DNA of 64,000 nucleotides from Candidatus Syntropharchaeum sp. (GTDB taxonomy: Archaea; Halobacteriota; Syntropharchaeia; Syntropharchaeales; Syntropharchaeaceae). The stretch's first letter is position 1, and every line of letters starts with the position of its first letter. The translations under genes were made by a program, and so were the position numbers. This document shows positions 13,885-50,169 of this stretch, one piece after another. The stretch covers positions 19,409 to 83,408 of the forward strand of contig JAOQII010000004.1 in NCBI GenBank assembly GCA_026134025.1. Direction: 5' to 3'. The notes under the pieces were generated by a model. That model worked only from the letters and a program-made list of their open reading frames with translations. It ran no database searches and was not told where the DNA came from.

Positions 13885-14088
13885 GCCTTATCCCGGTAAT
13901 CGTCGATATATTCTTCTCCTGCATCACAACACCGATCGTTGAAGAGGCACACTCGATCATCGGCTCTCTGAGTGAAACAACAATAAATTGCGCGCTCTTT
14001 GATAACTTTTTGATCATCTTTGCGACCTTCTCGACATTCACACCATCGAGCATCATATCTATCTCATCCAGTGCATAGAACGGTGCTG
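13846..14088. repeat. Copy 1 of a perfect 243-bp direct repeat, a duplicate of the smc 3' end (last about 75 codons, antisense) placed downstream of and overlapping the rpoD 3' end
   Basis: Nucleotide identity with 15706-15948 checked by eye. The ORF track shows identical 69-aa (minus) and 65-aa (plus) translations at both sites. Confidence 0.9.
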
Positions 14089-14118
14089 TCTGAAAAGAGA
14101 ATAAATTAGAGATCTGTC

Positions 14119-14892
14119 TTATTTCACCTCTGATTTTACAAATCCTTCTGTTCCGTTTATCAGCTCTTTAACTTCTTCTATTGGCGGTTCCTCTTTTGCA
14201 TGGTCACACTTATTACGAATATCCCCCAGCCATTCAATCTTTTTTCGTTTGGTTTCACTCAAATGACCCGCTTTACGCAATCCTTGGGCGAGTGAGTTGA
14301 TACCTTTAATAACAGTGTGATTCACAGGCGGCGTTGAAGTCTCGCATAAGGTCTTTAAATAGCGTTCCAATGCAACACCAGCAACCGCACCCGCAGCACG
14401 GATAAAACCGTGATCTAAAAGAAGTCTTGCCTCCTCTAATTCGCTTTCAACTAGATCTGCACTGATTGTTCTTCTTAATTTTAAGTTTTGTATTTCAAAG
14501 ACTTCAGGTAATGATAACAGTAAGTTCCTTTGTGTGTCAAAGAAATCTGTAAACTCTTTAATTATGTAATGCACATCAATCTTAGCCCAATCTTTTCGAA
14601 GTTGGAGTAAACATAAAATTTCCTCATATTCTTTTATAAATTCGTCTTTTCGATCAGATAAATATTCTTTTATCAGGGTTTCTCCTTTTGAATACCATAT
14701 TTGATATGATTGAACATATTTTCTTTGTTCCTCTCTAAAAGAGTTCTCGAATCACATCATTTCAGTATTTAAGTCATTTATATACGCAAACGTAAAGGTA
14801 TCAGATAAAAAACCAGTCACCTTTTTCTCAATTTCTTCTGCTTCCTTCTCCAATTCCCTAACAGTATGGATCAGTTCACTTAATTGTGTCAT
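14119..14892 (-). pseudogene. HEPN-domain protein (R-x4-H motif RNKCDH) interrupted by an in-frame TGA. A 47-codon N-terminal piece is followed by a 210-codon distal open frame; the listed GTG-initiated 151-aa ORF (14119-14574) is its terminal part
   Basis: Manual reverse-strand translation: ATG at 14892, in-frame TGA at 14752-14754, then a 59-codon stop-free frame continuing into ORF 14119..14574. The C-terminal GDIRNKCDHAKEE is the HEPN RNase signature. Confidence 0.5.
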
Positions 14893-14942
14893 TCATCTCA
14901 TCCCAAGTTCTTTAGACGTTTATTCTATTGAGAGATATCAAA

Positions 14943-15383
14943 TTATTCTTGCGTTAGGTATTCAAATGCACTGATATACTTGTATTTGATTACATTCTTG
15001 TATTTTGTTATCGTTCTTTCTTTTGCTACATCATGATACTTAGTTACCGTTCGTTGTTTAGCGACTTCGTGATACTTTGTGACTGTTCTCTCTTTTGGCA
15101 GATAAGTTACGACATATTGAAATTTGGAAGGTCGAAGTACTTCATAGGAGCAATTCAAAAATCTAGTACTATTAACCGTCCATTCGAATTGGTGGCTTTC
15201 ACCAGGCATCAAAAATACACTATCTGTTATAGCATTATATGATCGTTCAGTAGTTACTATATGGAAAACTACCTGAAACATTCCACCACTATCCTCTGTA
15301 TTCGTTATCATAACCATTAAATCAAGTAATTCGATAGACCCCAGTCCAGAGTACAACTTTAAAAAATGCTTATAAAAAACCAA
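14943..15383 (-). CDS. Hypothetical protein with C-terminal 11-aa tandem repeats (ERTVTKYHEVAKQ / RTVTKYHDVAKE / RTITKYKNVIKY)
   Basis: 146-aa ORF inside the repeat-flanked islet. Low GC. Confidence 0.35.
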   Translation of the reverse strand: MVFYKHFLKLYSGLGSIELLDLMVMITNTEDSGGMFQVVFHIVTTERSYNAITDSVFLMPGESHQFEWTVNSTRFLNCSYEVLRPSKFQYVVTYLPKERTVTKYHEVAKQRTVTKYHDVAKERTITKYKNVIKYKYISAFEYLTQE

Positions 15384-15421
15384 ACCCGATGTTTCATAAC
15401 TATATGGGATATTATCTGTGG

Positions 15422-15637
15422 TTAATTCTTTTTTTCATAATATGTTTCTACATCCTCATAAGGTTCCATTTCATAATATGTTTCTGTAGTTTCGTATGGC
15501 TCTGTTACATAATACGTCTCGGTCGCACTATATGGCTCCTTAACCGTGTAAGAGACTTCTATCACTGGCATAGATATTGCAACGCAAGCACACAATGTTG
15601 CCAATAAAGCACCTATTGCAATCCATTTCCTTTCCAT
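15422..15637 (-). CDS. Small secreted or membrane-anchored protein with triplicated EPY-x3-ETYY repeats
   Basis: MERKWIAIGALLATLCACVAIS signal-like N-terminus (internal Met of the 87-aa ORF), followed by KEPYSATETYYVTEPYETTETYYEMEPYEDVETYY. Confidence 0.35.
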   Translation of the reverse strand: MERKWIAIGALLATLCACVAISMPVIEVSYTVKEPYSATETYYVTEPYETTETYYEMEPYEDVETYYEKKN

Positions 15638-15705
15638 TTGTGAACCTCTAACTCTTTTTTTATTGATCCTATATAAAACTATCAATTCACATCTTAAGAG
15701 AAGCG

Positions 15706-15948
15706 GTCAGGCTGAAATCTGTGCTTGAGCGTTTTTCCCATTGAGCCTTATCCCGGTAATCGTCGATATATTCTTCTCCTGCATCACAACACCGATCGTT
15801 GAAGAGGCACACTCGATCATCGGCTCTCTGAGTGAAACAACAATAAATTGCGCGCTCTTTGATAACTTTTTGATCATCTTTGCGACCTTCTCGACATTCA
15901 CACCATCGAGCATCATATCTATCTCATCCAGTGCATAGAACGGTGCTG
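15706..15948. repeat. Copy 2 of the 243-bp direct repeat (the native 3' end of smc)
   Basis: Identical to 13846-14088 and contiguous with the smc body. Confidence 0.9.
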
Positions 15949-18900
15949 GCCTGTATCTCTGGATTGCAAAAAGAAATGAGAGTGCTGTAAGACTTTTTTC
16001 ACCACCAGATAGTGCTTCTAATCGTTGAATAGGTTTTCCTGCTGGCTGAACCTGAATCAACAGACCTCCTTCAAATGGCTTTTCTCGAGATTCAAGCAAT
16101 ATCTCACCATTCCCATCAGAAAGCTCTCTGAAGACTTCTTTGAAGTTTGCATTTATCGCATCAAAGGTTGAGAGGAAGACTTCCCGTTTTCTCATCTCAT
16201 ACCCCTCGATCCGCTCGATGATCGCACGCCGCTCATTTGAGAGTGTATTTCTTCGCTGCATTAGCTCATCAGACCGTGATTCAACCTCAAAAAACGCATC
16301 TATCGCCTTCATATTTACAGGCTCGAGTGCACGCATCCTCTCTTCAATTCGCTTAATCTGCTCTCTGATCGTATCATGATCTTCTCTAACCTCTCCCTCT
16401 GGATCGATCCCTGCTTCATCGATCCTGCGTTTTAGCTCTGTAATCTGCGATACGAGTCCTTCTTCGATCTTACGAAGATCTGTTAGTGCGCCATCGATCC
16501 GTTCACGTCTTAATTTCAATCCCTCAATCTCCTCACGGAGTTCCATGACCCGACTGAAACGCTCTTTGAATAGATTTTTAAGCTTTGAAAGCTCCTCTTC
16601 CAGTGCCTTCTCGCGTTCAAGAAGTTCTTCGCGTTCGCTCTCAAGTTCTTTGATCCTGAAGATATTATCCTTTATCTCATCGTTTATGCCCGAAAGGCTT
16701 GCATCCAGCGCTTTTAATCGGTCTTCTCCCTCAGCTATCTTCTTCTCAAGATACTCTCGATCGAGCGTGATTGACTTGATTGAGAGGTCAATCTCGCCCA
16801 TCCTACCTTCGATCATCCTTATCTCCTCGGAGATTTGACGCTCCTTCTTTGTAAGTTCGGGTATCTTCGATGCCTTCAGATCTGATTCAAGCTCACCGAT
16901 CGCTGATTCAAGCTCACTTATTCGCCTTCCTGATGCAGCGAGTGCCTCCTCAAGCTGGATAATTTCAGCCCTGTTATCCTCCTTCTCAAATCTTTCAAGC
17001 TCACGCCTGAGATCGTTCAGGTTACGTTCGCTCTCTTTCTTCTCAATCTGCAACTTATTCAGGATACTCCCCTCTTCAAAGAGATCCTCGCGAATCGTTG
17101 CGTTCCGATTCTCAAGCGCCTTTATTCGTTCAAGATGCATCTTAAGCTCTGATTCAAGGACTGTTCTCTCCTCCTGAAACTTCAGAAGCTCATTTCCTGT
17201 GCTACTTGTGAACCTGAACCGTGATTTTAAGGGTGCACCCCCTGTCATGATACCGCTTCGCTCTATAAGATCTCCATCGAGCGTAACAGACCTGAACCGA
17301 TCCATCAATCGCCTTCCATCCTCAATCGATTCAACAACCACTGTATCCCTGAAGACGTGCCAGAACGCCCGCTCGAATTTGGGATCATACTCGATCAAAT
17401 CGATCGCAAATCCAAGAACGCCTGGATAATCAAGTCCATCCAGTTTTCTCCCATCTTTAAGCTTGTTCAGAGGTAAAAATGTTGCACGCCCCTTCTTGAT
17501 CTGTTTCAGGTACTCGATCGCGTACTGTCCATCGATATCTGTCTCAACAACGATGTACTGCATTTTCCCTCCTGCTGCAGCCTCAAGCGCAACCGCAAAA
17601 CGATTTTCTACCCTTCCAAGCTCAGCAATCGTTCCATAAACCCCCTCAAGCTGATGCATTCTCACAGCTTCCATAACAGACTTAACACCCTCGCTATACC
17701 CTTTGAATTCCTTTTCTGCGAGTACACGGGCCTCTATTTCCATTATCTTCCGCTCTAAAGCTTTGAGATCTTTCTCACGGCCATTCAGCAACGTGCGCTC
17801 TTCACCAAGCACCTTCTCATTCTCCTCAAGTTCCCTGGATAGCTCATGCGTTCTCTTTGCTCTAAGTGAGATCTCTCTCTTCTTTGTATCAAGCTCTTTC
17901 GCAAGTTTTTTCATTCTTTCAGTTATCAAATCAATTTCACCAGATCTTCTTCGTGAACGGTCGAGTATCATATCCTGTTTCATCAGAATCTCGTTCTTTT
18001 TTGACTGCTCAACCTCAAGCTCTCTACGGAGGGTGTATAACCTGTGGGTCGCATCCTCTGCCTTAGATCCTGCAGACTCAATCTCCTTTTTTATTCCATC
18101 AAGGATCGCGGTCTTCTCATCCAGCGTCTCCTTCAAGCTTCCCTTTCGTATCCGCTCATCATCGAAGCGTTTTAATGTGTCTTCAAGCTCCTGACGGTTT
18201 GATTCAAGCTCTATGAAGATACTGTTCTTCTGTGTCTTTAGATCTTCTATCCGCTCTCTACCCAGCGATACAAGCTCTTTGAAACGAGTTATAGTGCCAG
18301 AAACTTCTTCGAGACTTTTTTTAATGGTTAACACTTCTTCTTCACGTTTTTTTACAAGCCGTACCTCGTCTTCATCAAGATCTGACTGTATATCCTCCAT
18401 CTGTGCTGTTTTATTTGAAATACCCCTTGATATAATCTCTTTCTTCTCCAATCTATCCTCTATTGAGCTTTTTATCTCATCAAACTCCTGCTCTTTGAGA
18501 TTGAGGTCTGCAAGAAGGAGAGACGCCTCACACCGTACCTTCTCCTCCTTGAGGTTTTCATACATAAGCGCCTGATCTCGTTCGGTCTGGAGGACTTTGA
18601 GACGGTTTTTAAGTTCTTCAAGGATAATATCGAGCCTCTCGATCCTTGATCGCACCTCATCAAGCTCATGATGCGCTCGCTCCTTCTTTTCATCAAACTC
18701 CGCCACGCCAGAGATCTCATCTATGATCTTTCGCCGCTCAAATGAACTCATATTGAGTATTCTGGTGACATCGCCCTGCATTATCACATTGTATGAGTTT
18801 GAGGTGATGAAAGACCTGCTCAGTATCTCCTGGATCTCTGAAAATGTGCACGGCTTCCCATTGATATAATAATAACTGTAATAACCGTTATCCGTCTTTT

Positions 18901-19210
18901 TTACCTTCCTTGAAATCGTAACAGCATCTCTATCTATCGGAATTAAACGATCACTATTGTCAAAGTGGACCTTCACTTCGGCCTGATTTATCCCATCTCC
19001 ATTACCAGAGCTGTAGATAAGATCGGTCAGCTTATCGGCGCGCATATCTCTCGATTTTGAGAGCCCAAGCGTGAAGAGGATAGCATCAAGTACATTGCTC
19101 TTTCCACTCCCATTGGGTCCTGAAATCGTCATAAACTCGTCAAAGAGCGGTATATGAGTCTGATTTTTAAATGATTTAAAGTTCTTCAGGTCTATACCCT
19201 TAATATGCAC
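15707..19210 (-). CDS. smc: Chromosome segregation protein SMC
   Basis: 1167 aa. N-terminal Walker A (ISGPNGSGKSNVLDAILF), long coiled coils, hinge, C-terminal LSGGEKSLTALSFLFAIQ signature plus Walker B (FYALDEIDMMLD). Confidence 0.95.
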   Translation of the reverse strand: MHIKGIDLKNFKSFKNQTHIPLFDEFMTISGPNGSGKSNVLDAILFTLGLSKSRDMRADKLTDLIYSSGNGDGINQAEVKVHFDNSDRLIPIDRDAVTISRKVKKTDNGYYSYYYINGKPCTFSEIQEILSRSFITSNSYNVIMQGDVTRILNMSSFERRKIIDEISGVAEFDEKKERAHHELDEVRSRIERLDIILEELKNRLKVLQTERDQALMYENLKEEKVRCEASLLLADLNLKEQEFDEIKSSIEDRLEKKEIISRGISNKTAQMEDIQSDLDEDEVRLVKKREEEVLTIKKSLEEVSGTITRFKELVSLGRERIEDLKTQKNSIFIELESNRQELEDTLKRFDDERIRKGSLKETLDEKTAILDGIKKEIESAGSKAEDATHRLYTLRRELEVEQSKKNEILMKQDMILDRSRRRSGEIDLITERMKKLAKELDTKKREISLRAKRTHELSRELEENEKVLGEERTLLNGREKDLKALERKIMEIEARVLAEKEFKGYSEGVKSVMEAVRMHQLEGVYGTIAELGRVENRFAVALEAAAGGKMQYIVVETDIDGQYAIEYLKQIKKGRATFLPLNKLKDGRKLDGLDYPGVLGFAIDLIEYDPKFERAFWHVFRDTVVVESIEDGRRLMDRFRSVTLDGDLIERSGIMTGGAPLKSRFRFTSSTGNELLKFQEERTVLESELKMHLERIKALENRNATIREDLFEEGSILNKLQIEKKESERNLNDLRRELERFEKEDNRAEIIQLEEALAASGRRISELESAIGELESDLKASKIPELTKKERQISEEIRMIEGRMGEIDLSIKSITLDREYLEKKIAEGEDRLKALDASLSGINDEIKDNIFRIKELESEREELLEREKALEEELSKLKNLFKERFSRVMELREEIEGLKLRRERIDGALTDLRKIEEGLVSQITELKRRIDEAGIDPEGEVREDHDTIREQIKRIEERMRALEPVNMKAIDAFFEVESRSDELMQRRNTLSNERRAIIERIEGYEMRKREVFLSTFDAINANFKEVFRELSDGNGEILLESREKPFEGGLLIQVQPAGKPIQRLEALSGGEKSLTALSFLFAIQRYRPAPFYALDEIDMMLDGVNVEKVAKMIKKLSKSAQFIVVSLREPMIECASSTIGVVMQEKNISTITGIRLNGKNAQAQISA

Positions 19211-27481: not shown

Positions 27482-27608
27482 TGGTATAGCGGCCATAGCG
27501 GCGGGGAAACTCCTGTACCCATCCCGAACACAGAAGATAAGCCCGCCAGCGTTCCTTGTTGTACTGAGGTGCGCGAGCCCTCGGGAAGTCTGGATCGCTG
27601 CTATACCA
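27482..27608 (+). rRNA. rrf: 5S ribosomal RNA (standalone copy)
   Basis: GGTATAGCGGC...CCCATCCCGAACACAGAAGATAAGCC...GCTGCTATACC. Terminal helix pairing (ggtatagc/gctatacc) and the conserved loop C/helix motifs of archaeal 5S. Confidence 0.8.
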
Positions 27609-42241: not shown

Positions 42242-42736
42242 ATGAAAAAGCTTCGAATATCCTTTCTGGTCATTTTCTTACTGCTTTTATTCATTCCAGC
42301 CACTTTTGCAGGAACGATCGAGTGGCATACGTATGATGAAGGAATGAAACTTGCGGCTTCAGAGGGGGGGGTTGCGATGATCTATTTTCATTCCGATTCG
42401 TGCTACTACTGCAGACAGATGGAATCAACAACTCTCTCAGATCCCGAAATAATAGCTCTCTCAGGAAAGATGATCTGCATTGATGCAAACGGAGATCGTA
42501 ATCTCCTTGCAAGATACTACGTCAGAAGCTATCCCACGATTCTTTTTGTTGATCCAGATGGTGAGGAGATATTCAGGTTAATCGGCTACAGAGATCCACC
42601 TACCTTCAAAACTTATGTGGAGGCAATCCTTGAGGGTAATCCACCACCCACATCCACTGAGTCGCCTGCTTGTGGCGTTCTCATAGTGCTGGGTGTAATA
42701 ACTGGATTATGGATTTACCTGAGGCAAAATAGATGA
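42242..42736 (+). CDS. Thioredoxin-fold thiol-disulfide oxidoreductase, secreted with C-terminal TM anchor
   Basis: Signal peptide, CxxC (SCYYC) in a Trx-like context, YPTILFVD, C-terminal hydrophobic helix. Confidence 0.65.
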   Translation: MKKLRISFLVIFLLLLFIPATFAGTIEWHTYDEGMKLAASEGGVAMIYFHSDSCYYCRQMESTTLSDPEIIALSGKMICIDANGDRNLLARYYVRSYPTILFVDPDGEEIFRLIGYRDPPTFKTYVEAILEGNPPPTSTESPACGVLIVLGVITGLWIYLRQNR

Positions 42737-43395
42737 TAGAGCTTCCTGTACCCATTCTTTCATTTTTATTTGGTGTTTTAAGCATCTTCACTCCGTGTGT
42801 TCTCCCTGTAATCCCAATTATCGCAGCTTATGCAGTAAAAGCAGGGCGATTTGTGCCTCTGGCGCTTGCATGCGGCTTCTCAATCTCGTATTTTTTGATG
42901 GGGATTGTTGCATTAGCCTTTGGACAGATCATGTATTCACTTGGCGATCTTTTGTGGCGTGGGGCAAGCGCGATCATAATCATAATGGGCGTATATATCC
43001 TGCTCGAGGAGCGTTTATCACCCGATATTCTATCAAGGCTACCATCCTCTGGTCTTTTTGATCATTTAAGGGCAAAGATGGGGAGTGAGATCAACGGTGT
43101 TTTAGGGGGTCTTCTTCTTGGGGCAACACTCAGCATTGTCTGGATACCATGTACAGGGCCTATTTTAGGATCTTTTCTCGCGATGATAGCGATGGAAGCC
43201 ACGTCACTTTATGAAAATCCACTTTTACTCCTCCTGTACTCATCAGGAATGGCAGTGCCTTTTTTAGCAATCGCTTACGGGTCAAATCTTTTTGTAAACA
43301 GGGTGAAGAGCTTATCTTCTCATCTTCCAGCTATAAGAACCCTATCTGGCATCATATTGATCCTGACCGGGATCTATTTCTGGCTGAAACTCTGA
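42733..43395 (+). CDS. ccdA: CcdA/DsbD-family transmembrane thiol-disulfide electron transporter
   Basis: Two conserved Cys in TM1/TM4 (FTPCVLPVIP; WIPCTGPILG), 6 TM. Start overlaps the upstream Trx-like gene. Confidence 0.8.
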   Translation: MIELPVPILSFLFGVLSIFTPCVLPVIPIIAAYAVKAGRFVPLALACGFSISYFLMGIVALAFGQIMYSLGDLLWRGASAIIIIMGVYILLEERLSPDILSRLPSSGLFDHLRAKMGSEINGVLGGLLLGATLSIVWIPCTGPILGSFLAMIAMEATSLYENPLLLLLYSSGMAVPFLAIAYGSNLFVNRVKSLSSHLPAIRTLSGIILILTGIYFWLKL

Positions 43396-43449: not shown

Positions 43450-44646
43450 GTGATTGATATAGATTTTGATCAGGGTCTACTAACGACAATACATGATATA
43501 TCCGTGAACTTTGATCAGTTGTCAGCACGTCTGCATGAGCTTACAAAGACCTATTCAACGGGTGTTATTATACCACTGCTCGAGAAGGATCTTAAAAATC
43601 CTGCGATGTCACGGATCATCGAAGGTTTGAATGAATGTACGTACCTGAATAAGGTATTTATCGCACTGGCGGCATCTGAAGATGGTTACAGCAGATCTCT
43701 TAAGACTTTTAAAGAACTCCAGATCCCAAATGAAACACTCTGGTGTAACAGCCCTGCGGTAAATGATGTCTTTGAGGATCTTGCAGTAGAAGGATTGGAT
43801 CTTACACATTATACCGGAAAAGGAATGGATGTATGGATAGCTTTTGGGATTGCGAGTCTCGAACTTGACGCATTCGTTCTTCACGATGGGGATATTCGTA
43901 CCTATTCAAAAATGATCCCAACAAAACTACTCTATCCGATCGTTGATCCAGAACTTGACTTTTTATTTACAAAAGGATATTATGCGAGGGTTGATACAGC
44001 AGATAAGATTATATATGGGAGGATATATCGCCTCTTCATCACACCAATCCTCGATGTTCTACAGGAGAAATTTGGCTACGATCTTGAGTTTTTGAGATAC
44101 CTGCAATCATTCAGGTACCTGCTCTCTGGCGAGATCGGTCTGACAAGTGAACTCGCCCTCAATTTGAGGATTGCGTGTGGGTGGGGGCTTGAGATCGGGA
44201 CCCTATCTGAGCTTATTAGAAACATTCATTACAAACGGGCATGCCAGGTCGATCTTGGGCTTTATGAGCATAAACATCAGGTGATGACGAAGGGTAAGAG
44301 TGAAGGAATTCTGAGGGTCGCGGGAGAGTGCTTTATAACGATCCTTAGAACGCTCACTGAGATGTATGCGATTGAAGTATCAGAGGAGTCATTTGCGAGT
44401 ATGAAGGTAGCCTACAGGCGTATGGCTACAGACAAGATACGTCAGTATCGGGCGATGGCGGTCTGTAATGGTCTGGACTATGATCTCAACCTCGAGGGGT
44501 ATATGGTGGAACAGTTTTCAGATGTAATAATGACTGCTGGAAGATCGTATCTAAAAAATCCGACAGCAAGGCAGATGCCTAACTGGCTACGTGCCCTATC
44601 AGCGATGCCAGATCTGAGAGAAAAGCTCCGAAAAGCGACGATATAA
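43450..44646 (+). CDS. Glucosyl-3-phosphoglycerate/mannosyl-3-phosphoglycerate synthase-like glycosyltransferase (GT81/GpgS-like)
   Basis: Resembles GpgS: GKGMDVWIAF...LHDGD (GKGEALW...IDSD in GpgS) and LSGEIGLTSEL...WGLEIGTLSEL (LSGEYAASREL...YGVEIGLLIDT). The neighbouring MpgP-family phosphatase supports this. Confidence 0.55.
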   Translation: MIDIDFDQGLLTTIHDISVNFDQLSARLHELTKTYSTGVIIPLLEKDLKNPAMSRIIEGLNECTYLNKVFIALAASEDGYSRSLKTFKELQIPNETLWCNSPAVNDVFEDLAVEGLDLTHYTGKGMDVWIAFGIASLELDAFVLHDGDIRTYSKMIPTKLLYPIVDPELDFLFTKGYYARVDTADKIIYGRIYRLFITPILDVLQEKFGYDLEFLRYLQSFRYLLSGEIGLTSELALNLRIACGWGLEIGTLSELIRNIHYKRACQVDLGLYEHKHQVMTKGKSEGILRVAGECFITILRTLTEMYAIEVSEESFASMKVAYRRMATDKIRQYRAMAVCNGLDYDLNLEGYMVEQFSDVIMTAGRSYLKNPTARQMPNWLRALSAMPDLREKLRKATI

Positions 44647-44652
44647 CAGGAT

Positions 44653-45852
44653 TCAAAGAAAATTCGTTGAGTACGCCTTATATGCCCTCAGGTACTCTGC
44701 ATGGGGCCATATAAGTGGCGTTGTAACATACACCAGTCCATCCTTCCATTTTGGATGCTTTTTTATATTCTCGATCATTGTTAGTTTTGTATCCCGCAGT
44801 ATCATTGCATTCTGGTAGCTCTCAAGCCACTGTTCGAACCGGTCTATCGTTGAGATATGTTCTGGAAACTTGTAATCATGAGCCATATCCACACACCAGC
44901 CAAGGTATATCTCAGCCACATCATCGTTGCCGACCTCGCAGTAATGCTTCGCAAGCTGGCATGTGAAGTGAAGCCAGGGGCCGTATCCGCCATTGTTTCG
45001 ATCCCAGCTTTCAGGATAGCGGTTCAATCCATCGAGCTCCTCGTCCCAGAGGTTATCGTGCAGTCGCCTCACCGTATTGAGTATCTTTAGGTCATCATCA
45101 GGGATCAGCCCGAAGTATGCGGGTGCATACTCAACGACGTCTGGATCTGTGACCGTGGATGCAAAAGGATCATACCCCAGTGGTTCGCTGTGCATATCTC
45201 GTATTCTTATGGTCTTTATGAATGTTCGCCTTCTCGGGCTGTATAACCTCGTGAAGATGCTTTTCTTTATCTTCTCTGCCTCTTCCTTCCAGCCATCAAC
45301 ATCTTCTCCTATCGCCTCACCGATCTTGACTGCCTCAAAGATCCCGGCACAGCAGGCCGAGTTTGCGTAGATCTCAAAACCGTGCTCGTATGCAGGGAAT
45401 TCGTGGATGCTGTTCACCGTGTGTATCAGATCAACCTCATTGTTCTTGTGTGAGATGATGAACTCGACCGCTTTCTTGATCGCCCACCAGTACTCCCGGC
45501 ATAGATCTTCATCCCGTGTGAGCTGGAAGTATTTTCCTGTGGCAAAGAGTATAAGCCCGTTACCATCGATCTGAACGTCTTTGTAGGAGGCGTCATTGCC
45601 ATCCACATCATACCGCTGTGAATACTCACCCGAAGGCTTCTGGATCGGTAACATGAACCTCAAAGCTCGCTCTGCCTCATCGATCATATTTGCTGCAAGT
45701 GCCCCGAGTATTATGACCGAGTGATCACGCGCGTATATGTATGGGTACCTTGTACCAGGTGGTGATGCATAGAAACCTCCGTTTGGGTGCTGGTTCTCCC
45801 GTATCACCCGCATCGACTCATACCATAGATCCTTCGCCTTGTTTTGATCCAT
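44653..45852 (-). CDS. Glycoside hydrolase with (alpha/alpha)6-barrel, GH15/GH63-like (glucoamylase/trehalase/glycosyl-glycerate hydrolase family)
   Basis: N-terminus QHPNGGFYASPPGTRYPYIYARDHS is typical of archaeal GH15-like enzymes. 399 aa. Confidence 0.6.
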   Translation of the reverse strand: MDQNKAKDLWYESMRVIRENQHPNGGFYASPPGTRYPYIYARDHSVIILGALAANMIDEAERALRFMLPIQKPSGEYSQRYDVDGNDASYKDVQIDGNGLILFATGKYFQLTRDEDLCREYWWAIKKAVEFIISHKNNEVDLIHTVNSIHEFPAYEHGFEIYANSACCAGIFEAVKIGEAIGEDVDGWKEEAEKIKKSIFTRLYSPRRRTFIKTIRIRDMHSEPLGYDPFASTVTDPDVVEYAPAYFGLIPDDDLKILNTVRRLHDNLWDEELDGLNRYPESWDRNNGGYGPWLHFTCQLAKHYCEVGNDDVAEIYLGWCVDMAHDYKFPEHISTIDRFEQWLESYQNAMILRDTKLTMIENIKKHPKWKDGLVYVTTPLIWPHAEYLRAYKAYSTNFL

Positions 45853-45861
45853 CTTTACCCC

Positions 45862-46368
45862 TCACTCATATCTGAAGATGCAGTATGCGCCTTCCTCAAG
45901 TAATTTTTCGATATCCTTCCTGTCAACCCCAAGTTTTTCTATTGCAGCATCATTGAATACAGGTTCCTGTGATGCCACCATCCTTGATGCAAGGTGATAA
46001 AACGTCTTACCAGCAAGTTCTGCTCGTTTTCTCCTTTGAGCATGGTGCATTATGCAAAAAATACTCGAAGCGGCAGCCTCTTCTTCTGGTTTTTCCCCTT
46101 TAAGTTCTTCCAAATTTACATATCCATTCGCATCTCTTGGGAGTGCTTCAAAGGTCTCTGGAATCTCAAATATCGCATACAGTGGGCAGCTCATGATGGA
46201 GCTGAACTCACCGGTTACTTTGCCTTCAACGCCTGGGCCTTCAAGTTCTGCCAGCCGTTCGCCTATTGATTCAAGCCACTTCTTGAGACCCTGGGCGCCG
46301 TGCTCATTTGCAACCTCGATCATACCGGCTATAAACGCCCAGGCCGGTGCATTTCTCCTTGTAAGCAT
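45862..46368 (-). CDS. Hypothetical protein
   Basis: 168-aa ORF between the GH and phosphatase genes, same strand. Confidence 0.35.
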   Translation of the reverse strand: MLTRRNAPAWAFIAGMIEVANEHGAQGLKKWLESIGERLAELEGPGVEGKVTGEFSSIMSCPLYAIFEIPETFEALPRDANGYVNLEELKGEKPEEEAAASSIFCIMHHAQRRKRAELAGKTFYHLASRMVASQEPVFNDAAIEKLGVDRKDIEKLLEEGAYCIFRYE

Positions 46369-46394
46369 CCTCTCACATCACCTTTTAGATTAAT

Positions 46395-47198
46395 TTATCC
46401 CATAAGCTCTATTATAACTTTGTTCCATCCTTCAGGTCCAATCCCACGAGCCTTTTTAAGACCATTAAACGAGACCATCGGATCATACGAGCCATCTGGT
46501 TTCTTGACAAGATAGGGGATATCAACTTCTCTAAGCATCGGAAGATCATTGAGACTGTCTCCCAGACCGATCGTTTTGATTTCTTTGTCGTGAGAGAAAA
46601 GCTCTGTTAACCGGTTTGTGGCCTTACCCTTGTCATTATCTCCCATTATGTGATAGTATCGCCCACCAACGGTGTAGCTAAAACCCAGCCTCGTAATCTC
46701 CTCCAGGATCATTTCAGCGCAATAGCCATCCTCAGGTATCTCAAACGCTTCATCATATTCACGAAGCTTTGCAAGGCAGGAATCCTCATAAGACAGACCA
46801 CAAGAAGCGGAAATCTCTTCAGGAGTCATATCTCCAAACCCGATGATTCTGCATCCTGTCTTTGAGCTTACAGTACTGAGTACACCCCTAAGTGTCCTGT
46901 AATCAGTCCCAAACTCAATTACATTGTATCCATCAACTTCTCTTGTGTAATCATACTCGAAATCAAAATACCCCTGAGGTATGAAGATCGCACCACCATT
47001 CTCAGGTATGAATGGGTCATTTATCTCAAGTTTTTTCCTGTAAACCTCTATCTCAGCCCGCGTCTTGCTTGTACAGAAGACGATGGGCACGCCCCGCTCT
47101 TTTAAAAGCTTTATAGCAGGCAGTGCCTTCTCGTATGAGTAGGTATCAGCATCCACGAGTGTTCCATCTAAATCAGTGAACACGACATATTCTTCCAC
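46395..47198 (-). CDS. Mannosyl/glucosyl-3-phosphoglycerate phosphatase (MpgP/YedP family, HAD-IIB)
   Basis: HAD motif I FTDLDGTLV, motif II CTSKT, C-terminal GDSLNDLPML. 267 aa, typical of MpgP/GpgP. Confidence 0.7.
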   Translation of the reverse strand: MEEYVVFTDLDGTLVDADTYSYEKALPAIKLLKERGVPIVFCTSKTRAEIEVYRKKLEINDPFIPENGGAIFIPQGYFDFEYDYTREVDGYNVIEFGTDYRTLRGVLSTVSSKTGCRIIGFGDMTPEEISASCGLSYEDSCLAKLREYDEAFEIPEDGYCAEMILEEITRLGFSYTVGGRYYHIMGDNDKGKATNRLTELFSHDKEIKTIGLGDSLNDLPMLREVDIPYLVKKPDGSYDPMVSFNGLKKARGIGPEGWNKVIIELMG

Positions 47199-47483
47199 AA
47201 GGAATCCCCCGTATTATCTCTTTACTACGAGTTTCTATATATATGTATTTTCATTTGGTAATCGATTAGCGTGGAATTTGAGCGAATAGTTCTTTGGAAA
47301 GATTTTTAAATCGCAACTCATAGTGTTAATAACGATAACGACTCCTGGAGGTTCAAGAATGGGAGAGATGACAGAGGAGCAGAAACGGGTGAAGGTTCAG
47401 GCATGCAGGGATGAAGTGGGGGATAAGTTCCCGATGAAGACCTGCATCGAGCACTGCCCGCTCTATGAGATCTGTAAGGATCT

Positions 47484-47569
47484 GCCGAGGTAGCCAAGCG
47501 GCCTACGGCGCTGGTCTTGAAAACCAGTGGGGCATACGTCCCGCAAGGGTTCAAATCCCTTCCTCGGCG
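47484..47569 (+). tRNA. tRNA-Ser (anticodon TGA), class II with long variable arm
   Basis: Acceptor stem GCCGAGG/CCTCGGC, anticodon loop CTTGAAA, long extra arm, T-loop GGTTCAAATCC. Confidence 0.85.
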
Positions 47570-47578
47570 TTTTTTTTT
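47570..47578 (+). terminator. Oligo-T tract immediately 3' of tRNA-Ser (archaeal-type terminator)
   Basis: A run of nine T residues directly after the discriminator base. Confidence 0.45.
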
Positions 47579-47876: not shown

Positions 47877-48905
47877 ATGGGTGATTACAGAGATCGGAGT
47901 TATTTATCTGCGATAGAAGCCGCTAAATTTCTAAATATTTCTGTGAAGAAATTGCACGGATTAACAAGAAATAATACTATCGAATACAAAAAATCAGCCA
48001 GCGGTCAGATGAGATACGATCTGGAAGACCTGAAAAAATACGCTGAAGAAAATCATATACAATTGGATGGCGTGAATATAGAAATAAAACGTCTCTCTCA
48101 GCTTAAAATAGACAACACCATTCAAAAATTCATTTTTGGGAGTTCTATGGAGATGAAAGAGTTAGAAGATGATTCGGTACATCTCATGATCACTTCGCCA
48201 CCGTATTTTAACGCTAAAATGTATACAAATGAGCCGATTGAAGGCGATTTAGGGAATGTTCATGATTTAAATGAATGGTTTTCAGATATATCAAAAGTTT
48301 GGAAAGAGGTTTATCGAGTATTACAACCCGGTAGAAAAGCCTTTATTAACATAATGAATCTTCCCATACGAGAAAATAAAACTTTCAGGAGTCTAAATCT
48401 GGTTGGTAAAACAATTGATGTTATGGAAGATATTGGTTTTATTTTTAAGAGAGACATAATATGGCATAAAACAAACGGTGTTAAAGCACACTTCGGAACG
48501 TATCCATATCCAGGCGGTATATTGTTAAATAACATGCACGAATTCATATTAGAATTTAGCAAACCCGAGAAGAGAGGATTTAAAAAATACGGACATCTAA
48601 CCAAAGAACAGAAAGAAAAATCAAAAATAGAAAAAGATTTCTGGTTGAAATTAAAAAACAGTGATGTATGGTTGATAAAACCAGAAAAAAGCGGGGATAA
48701 CCGTAATCATGTAGCGCCTTTCCCCTATGAACTTCCTTTTCGGTTGATCAAAGCCTACAGTTACATTTCTGAGACCGTACTCGATCCCTTTGCGGGCTCA
48801 TTTGTTACATTGAAAGCCGCAAAAGATTTAGAAAGAAACGGAATTGGGTATGAGATAAATAAAGAAATTCTCAAGGAGGCACTGATTGAATTTGAAAGTG
48901 AGTAA
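47877..48905 (+). CDS. DNA methyltransferase (N4-C/N6-A, beta-class, SPPY motif) with N-terminal HTH
   Basis: Motif IV ITSPPYF precedes motif I LDPFAGSFVT. N-terminal MerR/excisionase-like HTH (LSAIEAAKFLNISVKKL). GC visibly lower than its surroundings. Confidence 0.8.
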   Translation: MGDYRDRSYLSAIEAAKFLNISVKKLHGLTRNNTIEYKKSASGQMRYDLEDLKKYAEENHIQLDGVNIEIKRLSQLKIDNTIQKFIFGSSMEMKELEDDSVHLMITSPPYFNAKMYTNEPIEGDLGNVHDLNEWFSDISKVWKEVYRVLQPGRKAFINIMNLPIRENKTFRSLNLVGKTIDVMEDIGFIFKRDIIWHKTNGVKAHFGTYPYPGGILLNNMHEFILEFSKPEKRGFKKYGHLTKEQKEKSKIEKDFWLKLKNSDVWLIKPEKSGDNRNHVAPFPYELPFRLIKAYSYISETVLDPFAGSFVTLKAAKDLERNGIGYEINKEILKEALIEFESE

Positions 48906-49356
48906 ACCAGATCTTACCAGAATCAATGATTCGATGAATTACTTACTCACCCATTCATACCCCCTTTCTCCATGATCAAGCCATTGCTCCATCCAATCCA
49001 ACCATACGCCCCTCACATCCACTATCTCCAAAAACTTGGTCTAAGACCTTCTCCACTTCAAAAACAGATGCTGGTGGATTTTTCCAGAATAAATAAGCAG
49101 ATGTGACCTCCTCTTGAGCTTTGTGCGGTGTCGTTTGTTGTGATTTATAATCTTAAAGTCAGTGATGAAGTTCAAGCCTTTAAACGCTTGGGTTGTGAAT
49201 AATACATCCTGTAAGAGTTTATAGATTCCATTGGCAGGTTTGTGATCTTCTCTGCTGCTCTTATGCTCAAATATGGAGATTTGATCCTGAGTGTGGCAGT
49301 GTCTGACTGCAAGTCGGAAGCAGGGTTAGAATTGGGCGATTGGAGTGGGTGGGGAG

Positions 49357-49402
49357 TTATAAAAGGAGATGGTCTGAGTATGAATAATTACGCAAGAGGT
49401 CT
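49357..49402 (+). repeat. 46-bp conserved element, copy A (ttataaaaGGAGATGGTCTGAGTATGAATAATTACGCAAGAGGTCT)
   Basis: 42/46 identity with 62488-62533. Begins with a TATA-like ttataaaa. Confidence 0.7.
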
Positions 49403-49473
49403 ATTTAAATGCTGAACCAATATCTTTATATAATCTCCATTAGATATAATTCTTAGCTTAAAGGGGGAAAAGC

Positions 49474-50169
49474 ATGAGTAGATATTCAATAGATGAGTTT
49501 GTACGTGCCACATCAGAGCGAGATCGCGGTGAGGGCCCATTTGAGCTTGAGAACGATCGGACGCTGGAGATCCAGCTTGATGGTATGGTATGGATAAAAA
49601 TGGGATCGATGGTCGCGTACAATGGTAATATTAAGTTCACGCGCGAGGGTGTTCTGGAACATGGTATCGGCAAGATGCTGAAGAAAGCGGTCACAGGCGA
49701 GGGAACGATGCTCACAAAGGCAGAAGGGAGTGGGAATCTCTATCTTGCAGACAGCGGTAAGAAGATCTCTGTAATAGAACTTCAGGGAGATTCAATCACC
49801 GTCAACGGGAACGACCTCCTCGCATTCCAGAATTCGGTCAAGTGGGATATAACGATGATGAAGAAGATAACAGGGGTGCTTGCAGGCGGGCTTTTCAATG
49901 TCAAGCTTCAGGGGGAGGGTATGATCGCGATAACCACTCATTACGACCCTGTAACACTTATTGTAAAGCCTGGTGAACCTGTATTCACAGACCCGAATGC
50001 AACCGTTGCATGGTCATCTAACCTCGCCCCGGATCTCAAGGCGGATGTCTCACTGAAGACCCTGGTTGGCAGAACGAGCGGTGAGACAATTCAGATGAGG
50101 TTCGATGGTGATGGTTTCGTCGTTATCCAGCCTTTCGAGGAGATTTACTACATGGAGACAACGGCTTGA
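49474..50169 (+). CDS. AIM24/DUF124-family protein
   Basis: 231 aa; beta-rich sequence with the characteristic G-rich repeats (KMLKKAVTGEGTMLTKAEGSGNLYLADSGKKI...LAGGLFNVKLQGEGMIAI). Confidence 0.6.
   Translation: MSRYSIDEFVRATSERDRGEGPFELENDRTLEIQLDGMVWIKMGSMVAYNGNIKFTREGVLEHGIGKMLKKAVTGEGTMLTKAEGSGNLYLADSGKKISVIELQGDSITVNGNDLLAFQNSVKWDITMMKKITGVLAGGLFNVKLQGEGMIAITTHYDPVTLIVKPGEPVFTDPNATVAWSSNLAPDLKADVSLKTLVGRTSGETIQMRFDGDGFVVIQPFEEIYYMETTA

What the first reader, a model, noticed from the sequence alone, without database searches (positions are those of the whole stretch)
43450..47198. Compatible-solute cluster: GpgS/MpgS-like glycosyltransferase, GH15/GH63-like hydrolase, a hypothetical gene and an MpgP-family phosphatase
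The glycosyltransferase shares the GKG...DxD and LSGE...G(Y/W)G(V/L)EIG motifs with glucosyl-3-phosphoglycerate synthase. The HAD phosphatase has the MpgP/YedP motif set. An (alpha/alpha)6 glycosidase lies between them on the opposite strand. Together this suggests synthesis (two-step via the phosphorylated intermediate) and hydrolysis of glucosylglycerate or mannosylglycerate at one locus, as described for Methanococcoides and Methanohalophilus.
Basis: partly seen in the sequence, partly recalled or inferred. Interest (0 to 1): 0.5.

Follow-up and report, generated by a model that had tools for sequence, protein, structure and literature searches.

The report
Archaeal glucosylglycerate synthesis-and-turnover gene cluster
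This is a four-gene cassette in a butane-oxidising-type archaeon (Candidatus Syntrophoarchaeum): two genes make the stress-protectant sugar-acid glucosylglycerate by a known pathway, and a conserved, unstudied pair (a small sensor-like protein and a glucoamylase-like enzyme) probably breaks it down again.

Summary

- **Synthase.** The glycosyltransferase is a full-length homologue of the characterised Methanococcoides burtonii GpgS (46% identity; NF040724 at 499 bits, below the 700-bit equivalog cut-off).
- **Phosphatase.** The HAD protein passes the curated MpgP/GpgP cut-offs and is 56% identical to M. burtonii GpgP.
- **"Hypothetical" gene.** It has no family hit. It models confidently as a Bet3/V4R/H-NOX-type ligand-binding fold.
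- **Synteny across 77 archaeal genome loci.** The hypothetical gene lies directly upstream of the GH15-like gene in 72/72 loci. The phosphatase lies upstream in 57/64. A GpgS-like transferase lies nearby in 46/77. M. burtonii carries the same four genes.

Synthesis of a glycosyl-glycerate is well supported and is already reflected in the public annotation of this MAG. Hydrolysis by the GH15-like enzyme, regulated or assisted by the small protein, is a plausible inference and is not shown.

A 2026 paper reports an unidentified glucose-containing compound that dominates Syntrophoarchaeum cultures. Its extra m/z 351 ion equals the mass I calculate for a TMS hexosyl-glycerate fragment.

The parts
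43450..44646 (+). gpgS-like glycosyltransferase (archaeal-type glucosyl-3-phosphoglycerate synthase homologue, 398 aa)
   Evidence: NF040724 GpgS_Meth E 6e-150, 499.5 bits, aligned 4-397 of 398 to 1-395 of 402, below the 700-bit cut-off. 46% identity over 396 aa to ABE51702.1/Q12XX4, the characterised M. burtonii GpgS. Distant match to solved GT81 GpgS/MpgS with the catalytic motifs aligned. Motifs GKG123, DGD146, LSGE225, GWGLEIG244.
44653..45852 (-). Single-domain GH15-like (alpha/alpha)6 glycosidase, candidate glucosylglycerate hydrolase (399 aa)
45862..46368 (-). 168-aa protein of an unnamed family with a Bet3/V4R/H-NOX-like fold; putative ligand-binding partner of the glycosidase
46395..47198 (-). 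gpgP/mpgP: HAD-IIB glycosyl-3-phosphoglycerate phosphatase (267 aa); first gene of the minus-strand operon
   Evidence: TIGR02461 osmo_MPG_phos at 255.2 bits (cut-off 244.35). TIGR01486 at 237.5 bits (cut-off 164.75). 56% identity to ABE51701.1/Q12XX5, the M. burtonii GpgP/MpgP. HAD motifs present.
47199..47330 (-). AT-rich upstream region of the gpgP-hyp-GH15 operon, with a TATA-like run (about 47237-47250) and a G-rich ribosome-binding-like site just before the GTG start
   Evidence: Read directly from the sequence. Inference only; no promoter tool for archaea was available.

Best explanation
The locus is a self-contained cassette for making and turning over a glycosyl-glycerate compatible solute, most likely alpha-glucosylglycerate (GG).

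- Step 1 (homology to a characterised enzyme): the plus-strand transferase condenses an NDP-glucose with 3-phosphoglycerate to give glucosyl-3-phosphoglycerate.
- Step 2 (curated family membership): the HAD-IIB phosphatase removes the phosphate to give GG.
- Step 3 (inferred): the GH15-like single-domain glycosidase is co-transcribed with the phosphatase. It hydrolyses the alpha-glucosidic bond of GG to glucose plus glycerate by the inverting two-glutamate GH15 mechanism (E156 as acid, E331 as base). This lets the pool be drawn down when stress is relieved.
- Step 4 (inferred, weakest): the small Bet3/V4R-like protein encoded 9 nt upstream of the glycosidase binds a small ligand or the enzyme itself and gates step 3. 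This would stop synthesis and hydrolysis from running as a futile cycle. Salt inhibition plays that role for the cyanobacterial glucosylglycerol hydrolase.

My step-wise confidence: steps 1-2 about 0.9, the sugar being glucose about 0.7, step 3 about 0.55, step 4 about 0.3.
For: Steps 1-2: as listed under parts. The LSGE (Ser) form of the donor-sugar loop is the form proposed to exclude mannose in M. tuberculosis GpgS (PMC2581804).

Cassette: the same four genes are adjacent in M. burtonii and Ca. S. butanivorans while the flanking genes differ.

Synteny over 77 genome loci: hyp-GH15 72/72, HAD upstream 57/64, GpgS-like transferase within the held DNA 46/77 in five different arrangements. In a deep-branching group the triad instead sits next to a different, 472-aa GpgS-like transferase (PRK13915 at 112 bits). 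The link is therefore to the pathway, not to one gene lineage.

Step 3: GH15 fold and catalytic signature. GH15 enzymes act on alpha-glucosides, and GG is an alpha-glucoside (established knowledge). The general-base glutamate is retained, which argues for a hydrolase rather than a GH65-type phosphorylase (inference). There is precedent for a degrading enzyme encoded beside the synthase and controlled after translation: GGHA and GGP (PMC10873239).

Step 4: confident model, with structural neighbours that are ligand-binding or sensor domains. The 9-nt spacing to the glycosidase gene suggests coupled expression.
Against: The transferase scores below the NCBIfam equivalog cut-off (499 vs 700 bits). 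M. burtonii GpgS carries LAGE and one mycobacterial GpgS carries LGGE at the 'discriminating' loop, so the Ser rule is weak.

No biochemical or expression data exist for the GH15-like protein or the small protein. The known GG/MG hydrolases are GH63, a different family (PMC6608630).

Co-transcribing a hydrolase with the biosynthetic phosphatase is odd unless activity is regulated. The predicted acid-catalyst loop (residues 147-156) and two other loops have low model confidence.

Twelve loci with at least 5 kb upstream and at least 3 kb downstream show no GpgS-like gene nearby, including Methanohalophilus and ANME-1.
Confidence: 0.6

Rival explanations
1. The solute is mannosylglycerate (or both MG and GG). 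The transferase uses GDP-mannose, as the GT81 MpgS/GpgS of Rubrobacter does, and the GH15-like enzyme is an alpha-mannosidase-type MG hydrolase.
Against: The closest characterised relative, full length at 46% identity, is strictly GDP-glucose specific. The LSGE loop carries Ser, not Gly. The four best structural neighbours of the glycosidase are glucose-specific GH15 enzymes.
Confidence: 0.15
2. The GH15-like enzyme is not a GG hydrolase. It is a small glucoamylase, isomaltase or trehalase that mobilises glycogen or oligosaccharides to supply glucose for NDP-glucose and hence GG synthesis. Its linkage to gpgP reflects co-regulation of supply, not degradation.
For: Public annotation calls it 'glucoamylase'. 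The best family hits are oligosaccharide amylase, trehalase and glucoamylase models. Its nearest single-domain structure is isomaltose glucohydrolase. Co-transcription with a biosynthetic gene fits a supply role.
Against: All those family scores are far below the cut-offs: 114 vs 821, 43 vs 820, 32 vs 742. PDB sequence matches are only E of about 1e-3 or weaker, so it is a separate subfamily. That subfamily was found only beside the small protein and almost always beside gpgP, although the scan used peptide patterns taken from this subfamily. It lacks the N-terminal domain of prokaryotic glucoamylases (399 aa).
Confidence: 0.15
3. The GH15-like enzyme, with the small protein, modifies GG rather than degrading it. 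For example it could act as a transglucosylase that builds a di-hexosyl glycerate or a GG-primed oligosaccharide, by analogy with GG as the primer of mycobacterial methylglucose lipopolysaccharide.
Against: No additional glycosyltransferase, methyltransferase or acyltransferase is conserved in the cassette. GH15 enzymes are overwhelmingly hydrolases (established knowledge). The enzyme is a bare catalytic domain.
Confidence: 0.08

Closest known systems
Methanococcoides burtonii gpgS-gpgP (GpgS Q12XX4/ABE51702, GpgP Q12XX5/ABE51701; Costa et al. 2006, J Bacteriol 188:1022, cited in PMC3736172 and PMC3240985)
   Same: Both loci carry the same four gene families: transferase 46%, phosphatase 56%, small protein 30%, GH15-like 66% identity. 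Both have the phosphatase-small protein-GH15 order on one strand.
   Different: In M. burtonii gpgS is divergent from gpgP. Here it is convergent with the GH15-like gene, 6 nt apart. The window transferase is too divergent to pass the equivalog cut-off. The host is a thermophilic alkane oxidiser rather than a cold-adapted methanogen. Only gpgS and gpgP were characterised in M. burtonii.
Mycobacterial glucosylglycerate hydrolase GgH and Thermus/Rubrobacter mannosylglycerate hydrolase MgH (GH63)
   Same: The proposed reaction is the same: inverting hydrolysis of GG or MG to hexose plus glycerate. Both are (alpha/alpha)6 barrels of about 400-450 aa (PMC6608630).
Cyanobacterial glucosylglycerol system (ggpS with gghA) and Marinobacter ggpPS-ggp
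   Same: A compatible-solute synthase and the enzyme that degrades the same solute are encoded together. Degradation is held in check after translation, by salt inhibition (PMC10873239). That is the logic proposed here.
   Different: The solute is different (glucosylglycerol) and so are the enzyme families (GGP is GH13_18). Regulation is by ionic strength acting on the enzyme itself, not by a separate small protein.
Single-domain GH15 isomaltose glucohydrolase of Kribbella flavida (PDB 5z3a) and other GH15 enzymes
   Different: Sequence similarity is marginal (E about 0.03). The window enzyme has an inserted, low-confidence loop at the acid catalyst. The genomic context is entirely different.
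V4R / Bet3 (TRAPP) / H-NOX / BcsD / YslB fold group
   Different: No sequence-level match to any Pfam family, including V4R. It is a stand-alone 168-aa protein tied to a glycosidase. Its remote sequence relatives instead sit in Roadblock/LC7 plus small-GTPase loci.

Membership tests
Archaeal-type glucosyl-3-phosphoglycerate synthase (NCBIfam NF040724 GpgS_Meth; related to CAZy GT81) | Whole-protein score at or above the curated equivalog cut-off (700 bits) | tested here: not met
   499.5 bits, E 6e-150, full-length alignment. It is a clear homologue but outside the curated equivalog boundary.
Archaeal-type glucosyl-3-phosphoglycerate synthase (NCBIfam NF040724 GpgS_Meth; related to CAZy GT81) | Full-length homology to the biochemically characterised enzyme (M. 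burtonii Q12XX4) | tested here: met
   46% identity and 67% positives over 396 aa, E 1e-133. The identity of the reference sequence was confirmed by accession.
Archaeal-type glucosyl-3-phosphoglycerate synthase (NCBIfam NF040724 GpgS_Meth; related to CAZy GT81) | GT-A catalytic motifs of GpgS: GKG lysine, DxD, (P)L(S/G)GE donor loop, G(Y/W)G(V/L)E, downstream His | tested here: met
   GKG123, DGD146, LSGE225, GWGLEIG244 and EHKH273 align to the same motifs in solved mycobacterial GpgS.
Archaeal-type glucosyl-3-phosphoglycerate synthase (NCBIfam NF040724 GpgS_Meth; related to CAZy GT81) | Catalyses NDP-glucose + 3-phosphoglycerate -> glucosyl-3-phosphoglycerate, with discrimination against mannose | not testable with these tools
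   Only indirect evidence: Ser in the LSGE loop (PMC2581804), and characterised GpgS enzymes do not all follow this rule.
Mannosyl/glucosyl-3-phosphoglycerate phosphatase (TIGR02461 osmo_MPG_phos; TIGR01486 HAD-SF-IIB-MPGP) | Score above the curated cut-offs | tested here: met
   TIGR02461 at 255.2 vs 244.35. TIGR01486 at 237.5 vs 164.75.
Mannosyl/glucosyl-3-phosphoglycerate phosphatase (TIGR02461 osmo_MPG_phos; TIGR01486 HAD-SF-IIB-MPGP) | HAD motifs I-IV (DxDGT, T/S, K, GDxxND) | tested here: met
   DLDGT9, TSK43, DKGK189, GDSLND213. 56% identity to the characterised M. burtonii GpgP.
Mannosyl/glucosyl-3-phosphoglycerate phosphatase (TIGR02461 osmo_MPG_phos; TIGR01486 HAD-SF-IIB-MPGP) | Encoded next to, or near, the cognate synthase | tested here: met
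   About 1.7 kb from the transferase gene in the window. Recurrent across loci.
Glycoside hydrolase family 15 | Pfam PF00723 above the gathering threshold | tested here: met
   41.3 bits vs 22, residues 75-391.
Glycoside hydrolase family 15 | (alpha/alpha)6 barrel closest to GH15 structures | tested here: met
Glycoside hydrolase family 15 | Catalytic acid and base glutamates plus the substrate-binding Arg-Asp and RYPE arginine | tested here: met
   R42-D43, E156, R278 and E331 are invariant in 17 sequences down to 54% identity. Caveat: the acid lies in a low-confidence loop, and the alignment there contains a gap.
Glycoside hydrolase family 15 | Membership of a characterised GH15 specificity group (glucoamylase TIGR01535, oligosaccharide amylase TIGR01577, archaeal trehalases TreH1/TreH2) | tested here: not met
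   Scores 32, 114, 43 and 35 bits against cut-offs 742, 821, 820 and 1000. Only the catalytic-domain part of those models is matched.
GH63 mannosylglycerate/glucosylglycerate hydrolase (MgH/GgH) | Match to the MGH1-like GH domain (PF22422) above its cut-off, or closest fold to GH63 | tested here: not met
GH63 mannosylglycerate/glucosylglycerate hydrolase (MgH/GgH) | Hydrolyses GG/MG to hexose plus glycerate | not testable with these tools
   Function is inferred from gene neighbourhood only.
V4R / Bet3 / H-NOX fold group | Sequence match to a family model (e.g. Pfam V4R) | tested here: not met
   No Pfam or NCBIfam family at E <= 0.01 for the window protein. No relevant family at E <= 1 for any of 28 members.
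V4R / Bet3 / H-NOX fold group | Shared three-dimensional fold | tested here: inconclusive
V4R / Bet3 / H-NOX fold group | Binds a small ligand or cofactor | not testable with these tools
   The partly conserved Cys/His motifs (CP[LF], C.MHH, C-terminal C) are only suggestive.

The most novel reading that the evidence does not exclude
The small Bet3/V4R-like protein and the GH15-like enzyme form a previously unrecognised two-component glucosylglycerate hydrolase. It would be a GH15-family counterpart of the GH63 GgH/MgH enzymes, gated by a ligand-sensing subunit. It is conserved across marine Methanosarcinales, ANME-1/-2/-3, Alkanophaga, Methanolliviera and Syntrophoarchaeum. A corollary follows for the abundant unidentified glucose-containing 'disaccharide' with an m/z 351 fragment reported in 2026 from Syntrophoarchaeum and ANME-1 cultures: it would be the glycosyl-glycerate made by this cassette.
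Probability: 0.35. Interest if true: 0.6.

Novelty: new variant of a known kind. Interest (0 to 1): 0.42.

Why it matters
The biosynthetic half is textbook and already annotated, so on its own it adds only a new host lineage.

What could matter is the conserved pair beside it. No enzyme that degrades glucosylglycerate is known in archaea, and the known bacterial ones belong to another family. A GH15-type hydrolase with a sensor-like partner would show how these archaea recycle a major carbon and charge pool. It would also give the 'glucoamylase' annotations in dozens of methanogen and methanotroph genomes a real function.

The cassette also offers a concrete, cheap test for the identity of the dominant unknown metabolite in thermophilic alkane-oxidising consortia: run a GG or MG standard.

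Tried and rejected
- **GH63 membership of the glycosidase.** Rejected.
- **Equivalog-level assignment of the glycosidase** to glucoamylase, oligosaccharide amylase or trehalase. Rejected.
- **Family assignment of the small protein.** Pfam and NCBIfam gave nothing. Pfam on its remote relatives also gave nothing.
- **Profile comparison of the GH alignment with A. niger glucoamylase.** It aligned only the RYPE region at low probability, so the acid and base assignments rest on the HMMER alignments.
- **Primary literature.** The primary paper PMC1347341 is not held. A search for M. burtonii locus tags found no paper. A search for GH15 plus glucosylglycerate plus methanogen found nothing relevant.
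- **A linked sugar-nucleotide or glycerate gene in the flanks.** None is present: DUF1616, UbiX-like flavoprotein, thioredoxin/DsbD, DNA methylase, AIM24, SIS.
- **An alternative synthase upstream of the ANME-1 triads.** The upstream gene is elongation factor aEF-2.
- **Fold search of the small protein against afdb50.** That library was unavailable.
- **A published TMS mass spectrum of glucosylglycerate.** None was found in the library. The m/z 351 argument rests on my own fragment arithmetic.


Full report
**Observation.** The finding's coordinates coincide exactly with four ORFs:
- 43450-44646 (+), 398 aa
- 44653-45852 (-), 399 aa
- 45862-46368 (-), 168 aa
- 46395-47198 (-), 267 aa

The three minus-strand genes are separated by 26 and 9 nt. 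The transferase and the glycosidase converge with 6 nt between their stop codons. The transferase has GKG123, DGD146, LSGE225 and GWGLEIG244. The phosphatase has DLDGT9, TSK43, DKGK189 and GDSLND213.

**Transferase and phosphatase.** Pfam does not recognise the transferase. NCBIfam NF040724 (GpgS_Meth) matches it end to end at E 6e-150 and 499.5 bits, which is below that model's 700-bit equivalog cut-off.

The transferase is 46% identical over 396 residues to the 404-aa protein next to the M. burtonii phosphatase. An exact-sequence look-up shows that protein to be ABE51702.1/Q12XX4. This is the accession used in the literature for the characterised, GDP-glucose-specific M. burtonii GpgS (PMC3736172).

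Against solved structures it matches only GT81 GpgS and MpgS chains, weakly (E 3e-5 to 5e-3). The lysine, DxD, L(S/G)GE and G(Y/W)GxE motifs are in register.

The HAD protein exceeds the curated cut-offs of TIGR02461 (255.2 vs 244.35) and TIGR01486 (237.5 vs 164.75). It is 56% identical to M. burtonii GpgP/MpgP, ABE51701.1/Q12XX5. Phosphatases of this family dephosphorylate both glucosyl- and mannosyl-3-phosphoglycerate (PMC3240985).

Two-step synthesis of a glycosyl-glycerate is therefore well supported. Glucose is favoured by the nearest characterised relative and, weakly, by the Ser in the LSGE loop (PMC2581804). It is not proven. M. burtonii has LAGE and one mycobacterial GpgS has LGGE at that position.

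**Glycosidase.** Family searches place it in GH15 but in no characterised specificity group:
- It passes Pfam GH15 (41.3 bits vs 22) and fails the GH63-type MGH1-like model (16.1 bits vs 27).
- It lies far below every NCBIfam equivalog cut-off for glucoamylase, oligosaccharide amylase and archaeal trehalases, and it matches only their catalytic-domain portion.
- By sequence it has no significant PDB relative as a single query. As a profile it has only marginal ones (dextran dextrinase E 0.0016, isomaltose glucohydrolase E 0.03).

R42-D43, E156, R278 and E331 are invariant across the family. They align with the GH15 RD motif, the WE acid, the RYPE arginine and the PEQ base.

It is therefore a divergent, single-domain GH15-type enzyme with an intact inverting hydrolase machinery. 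It is not a GH63 enzyme. Retention of the base glutamate argues against a phosphorylase (inference).

**The 'hypothetical' gene.** No Pfam or NCBIfam family matches it or any of 27 relatives. The family is small. A word-seeded search found 6 relatives and then 27. A full HMM scan of 1.8 billion representatives found 12 clusters at E < 1e-10.

This is a fold used for binding small ligands or for regulatory protein contacts.

Weak sequence relatives of 170-208 aa share its CPF / FC.(M/I)HQ / C.Y motifs. They sit among Roadblock/LC7 and small-GTPase genes. Their Pfam scan is also empty.

**Gene neighbourhood.** M. burtonii carries the same four genes, with gpgS divergent from gpgP-hyp-GH15. Ca. 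S. butanivorans has the window's arrangement but different flanking genes. The window's own flanks are unrelated to sugar metabolism.

I scanned one genome per GTDB species with the GH15-like alignment. This returned 77 loci from:
- Methanococcoides, Methanolobus, Methanohalophilus, Methanosalsum, Methanohalobium
- Methanothrix/Methanocrinis
- ANME-2, ANME-3 and ANME-1
- Alkanophaga, Methanolliviera
- an unnamed deep group

ORF-level HMM searches gave the following:
- The small gene lies directly upstream on the same strand in 72 of 72 loci with enough flank.
- The phosphatase lies upstream in 57 of 64.
- A GpgS-like transferase lies within the held DNA in 46 of 77, in five different positions and orientations.

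In the deep group the adjacent transferase is a different 472-aa GpgS-like protein. It is closer to the bacterial PRK13915 model (112 bits) than to GpgS_Meth (56 bits). The association is therefore with the pathway rather than with one gene lineage.

In ANME-1 the triad follows aEF-2 with no synthase nearby. Twelve well-flanked loci lack a nearby synthase. I could not check whether those genomes encode one elsewhere.

**Source and annotation status.** The window's proteins are exact matches to a Candidatus Syntrophoarchaeum sp. MAG on an 87.7-kb contig. They are already annotated as glucosyl-3-phosphoglycerate synthase, 'glucoamylase' and mannosyl-3-phosphoglycerate phosphatase. The small protein is 'hypothetical' in the related genomes where a source names it.

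**Mechanism.** Steps 1 and 2 (GpgS, then GpgP) rest on homology to characterised enzymes. Step 3, hydrolysis of GG by the GH15-like enzyme, rests on four things:
- the near-obligate linkage to gpgP
- the alpha-glucoside chemistry of GH15
- the intact catalytic pair
- precedent: compatible-solute hydrolases or phosphorylases encoded beside the synthase and restrained by salt (GGHA, GGP; PMC10873239)

Known GG and MG hydrolases are GH63 (PMC6608630), so this would be a non-homologous replacement within the same barrel architecture.

Step 4 is the most speculative. In it the small protein senses a ligand and gates the hydrolase, which would avoid a futile cycle. It rests on fold, gene adjacency and spacing only.

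Rivals are laid out in the rival-explanations section: mannosylglycerate instead of GG, a supply-side glucoamylase, or a transglucosylase.

**A link to an open observation.** A 2026 study found that thermophilic cultures dominated by Syntrophoarchaeum (Butane50, Propane50) or ANME-1 (GB50) are dominated by an unidentified glucose-containing compound. It elutes before trehalose (21.7 and 22.4 min, against 25.9 min). It shows m/z 361, 217 and 204 plus an unexplained m/z 351. Those archaea have few trehalose genes (PMC13597711).

I applied the general R-O-CH=O+-TMS fragment of TMS glycosides (my own knowledge of TMS-sugar fragmentation). Nominal-mass arithmetic gives 133 for methyl glycosides, 337 for glycerol glycosides and exactly 351 for a 2-O-linked glycerate aglycone. 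Per-TMS GG (700 Da) is lighter than per-TMS trehalose (918 Da), which is consistent with earlier elution.

This is an inference, not an identification. I found no published TMS spectrum of GG in the library. It is cheap to test.

**Verdict.** The biosynthetic half is known biology in a new host and is already annotated. The GH15-like enzyme and its Bet3/V4R-like partner form a conserved pair that I found no report of in the searched literature. Their role in glycosyl-glycerate turnover is plausible but untested. I rate this a new variant of a known kind, of moderate interest.

Noticed in passing
window 47483-47570 (tRNA-Ser UGA), 47877-48905, and about 48000-50000: The tRNA-Ser gene is followed about 300 nt later by a gene encoding an HTH_17 (excisionase-type) domain fused to an N6/N4 DNA methylase. 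GC content drops to 0.40 in the same stretch. This could be an integrated element or a defence island at a tRNA.
   Followed up: partly
window 47359-47493 (+): A 44-codon ORF sits behind a GGAGGT Shine-Dalgarno-like site. It encodes a Cys-rich peptide (MGEMTEEQKRVKVQACRDEVGDKFPMKTCIEHCPLYEICKDLPR, my hand translation). Its last 11 nt overlap the 5' end of the tRNA-Ser gene. It falls below the ORF-list length threshold and was read by eye.
   Followed up: no
L081:1685-2287 and neighbours (contig JAZDLJ010000459.1): Remote relatives of the 168-aa protein (P0156-P0172, 170-208 aa) share its CPF...FC.MHQ...C.Y motifs. In L081 one sits between three Roadblock/LC7 genes, a small Arf/Ras-like GTPase and a PatA_N protein. 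A Bet3-like protein next to a small GTPase recalls TRAPP as a Rab exchange factor.
   Followed up: partly
L067:5141-6562, L070:3102-4523, L071:5210-6628, L073:5215-6639, L076:1-1212: A deep-branching 'uncultured archaeon' group carries the phosphatase-small protein-GH15 triad behind a distinct 472-aa GpgS-like transferase. It scores 112 bits on PRK13915 and 56 bits on GpgS_Meth, below both cut-offs. This may be a third lineage of glycosyl-3-phosphoglycerate synthase.
   Followed up: partly
L066 (contig DYFG01000011.1, labelled Nitrosotalea sp.): This contig carries an ANME-1-like phosphatase-small protein-GH15 triad, very similar to L065 (scores; N-terminal alignment), although it is binned as a thaumarchaeon. 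This is probably a mis-binned contig.
   Followed up: no
window 27485-27606 (+): A 5S rRNA gene (98.8 bits). No 16S or 23S rRNA was detected anywhere in the 64-kb window.
   Followed up: no
window 14001-16000: The lowest GC content in the window (0.366, against about 0.46 overall), with a strand-skew switch, just upstream of a 1167-aa minus-strand ORF at 15707-19210.
   Followed up: no
window 42242-43395 (+): A thioredoxin-like protein with an N-terminal signal or anchor-like segment overlaps by 4 nt with a DsbD/CcdA-type membrane protein. The pair lies immediately upstream of the transferase gene. It is not conserved beside the cluster in Ca. S. butanivorans.
   Followed up: partly
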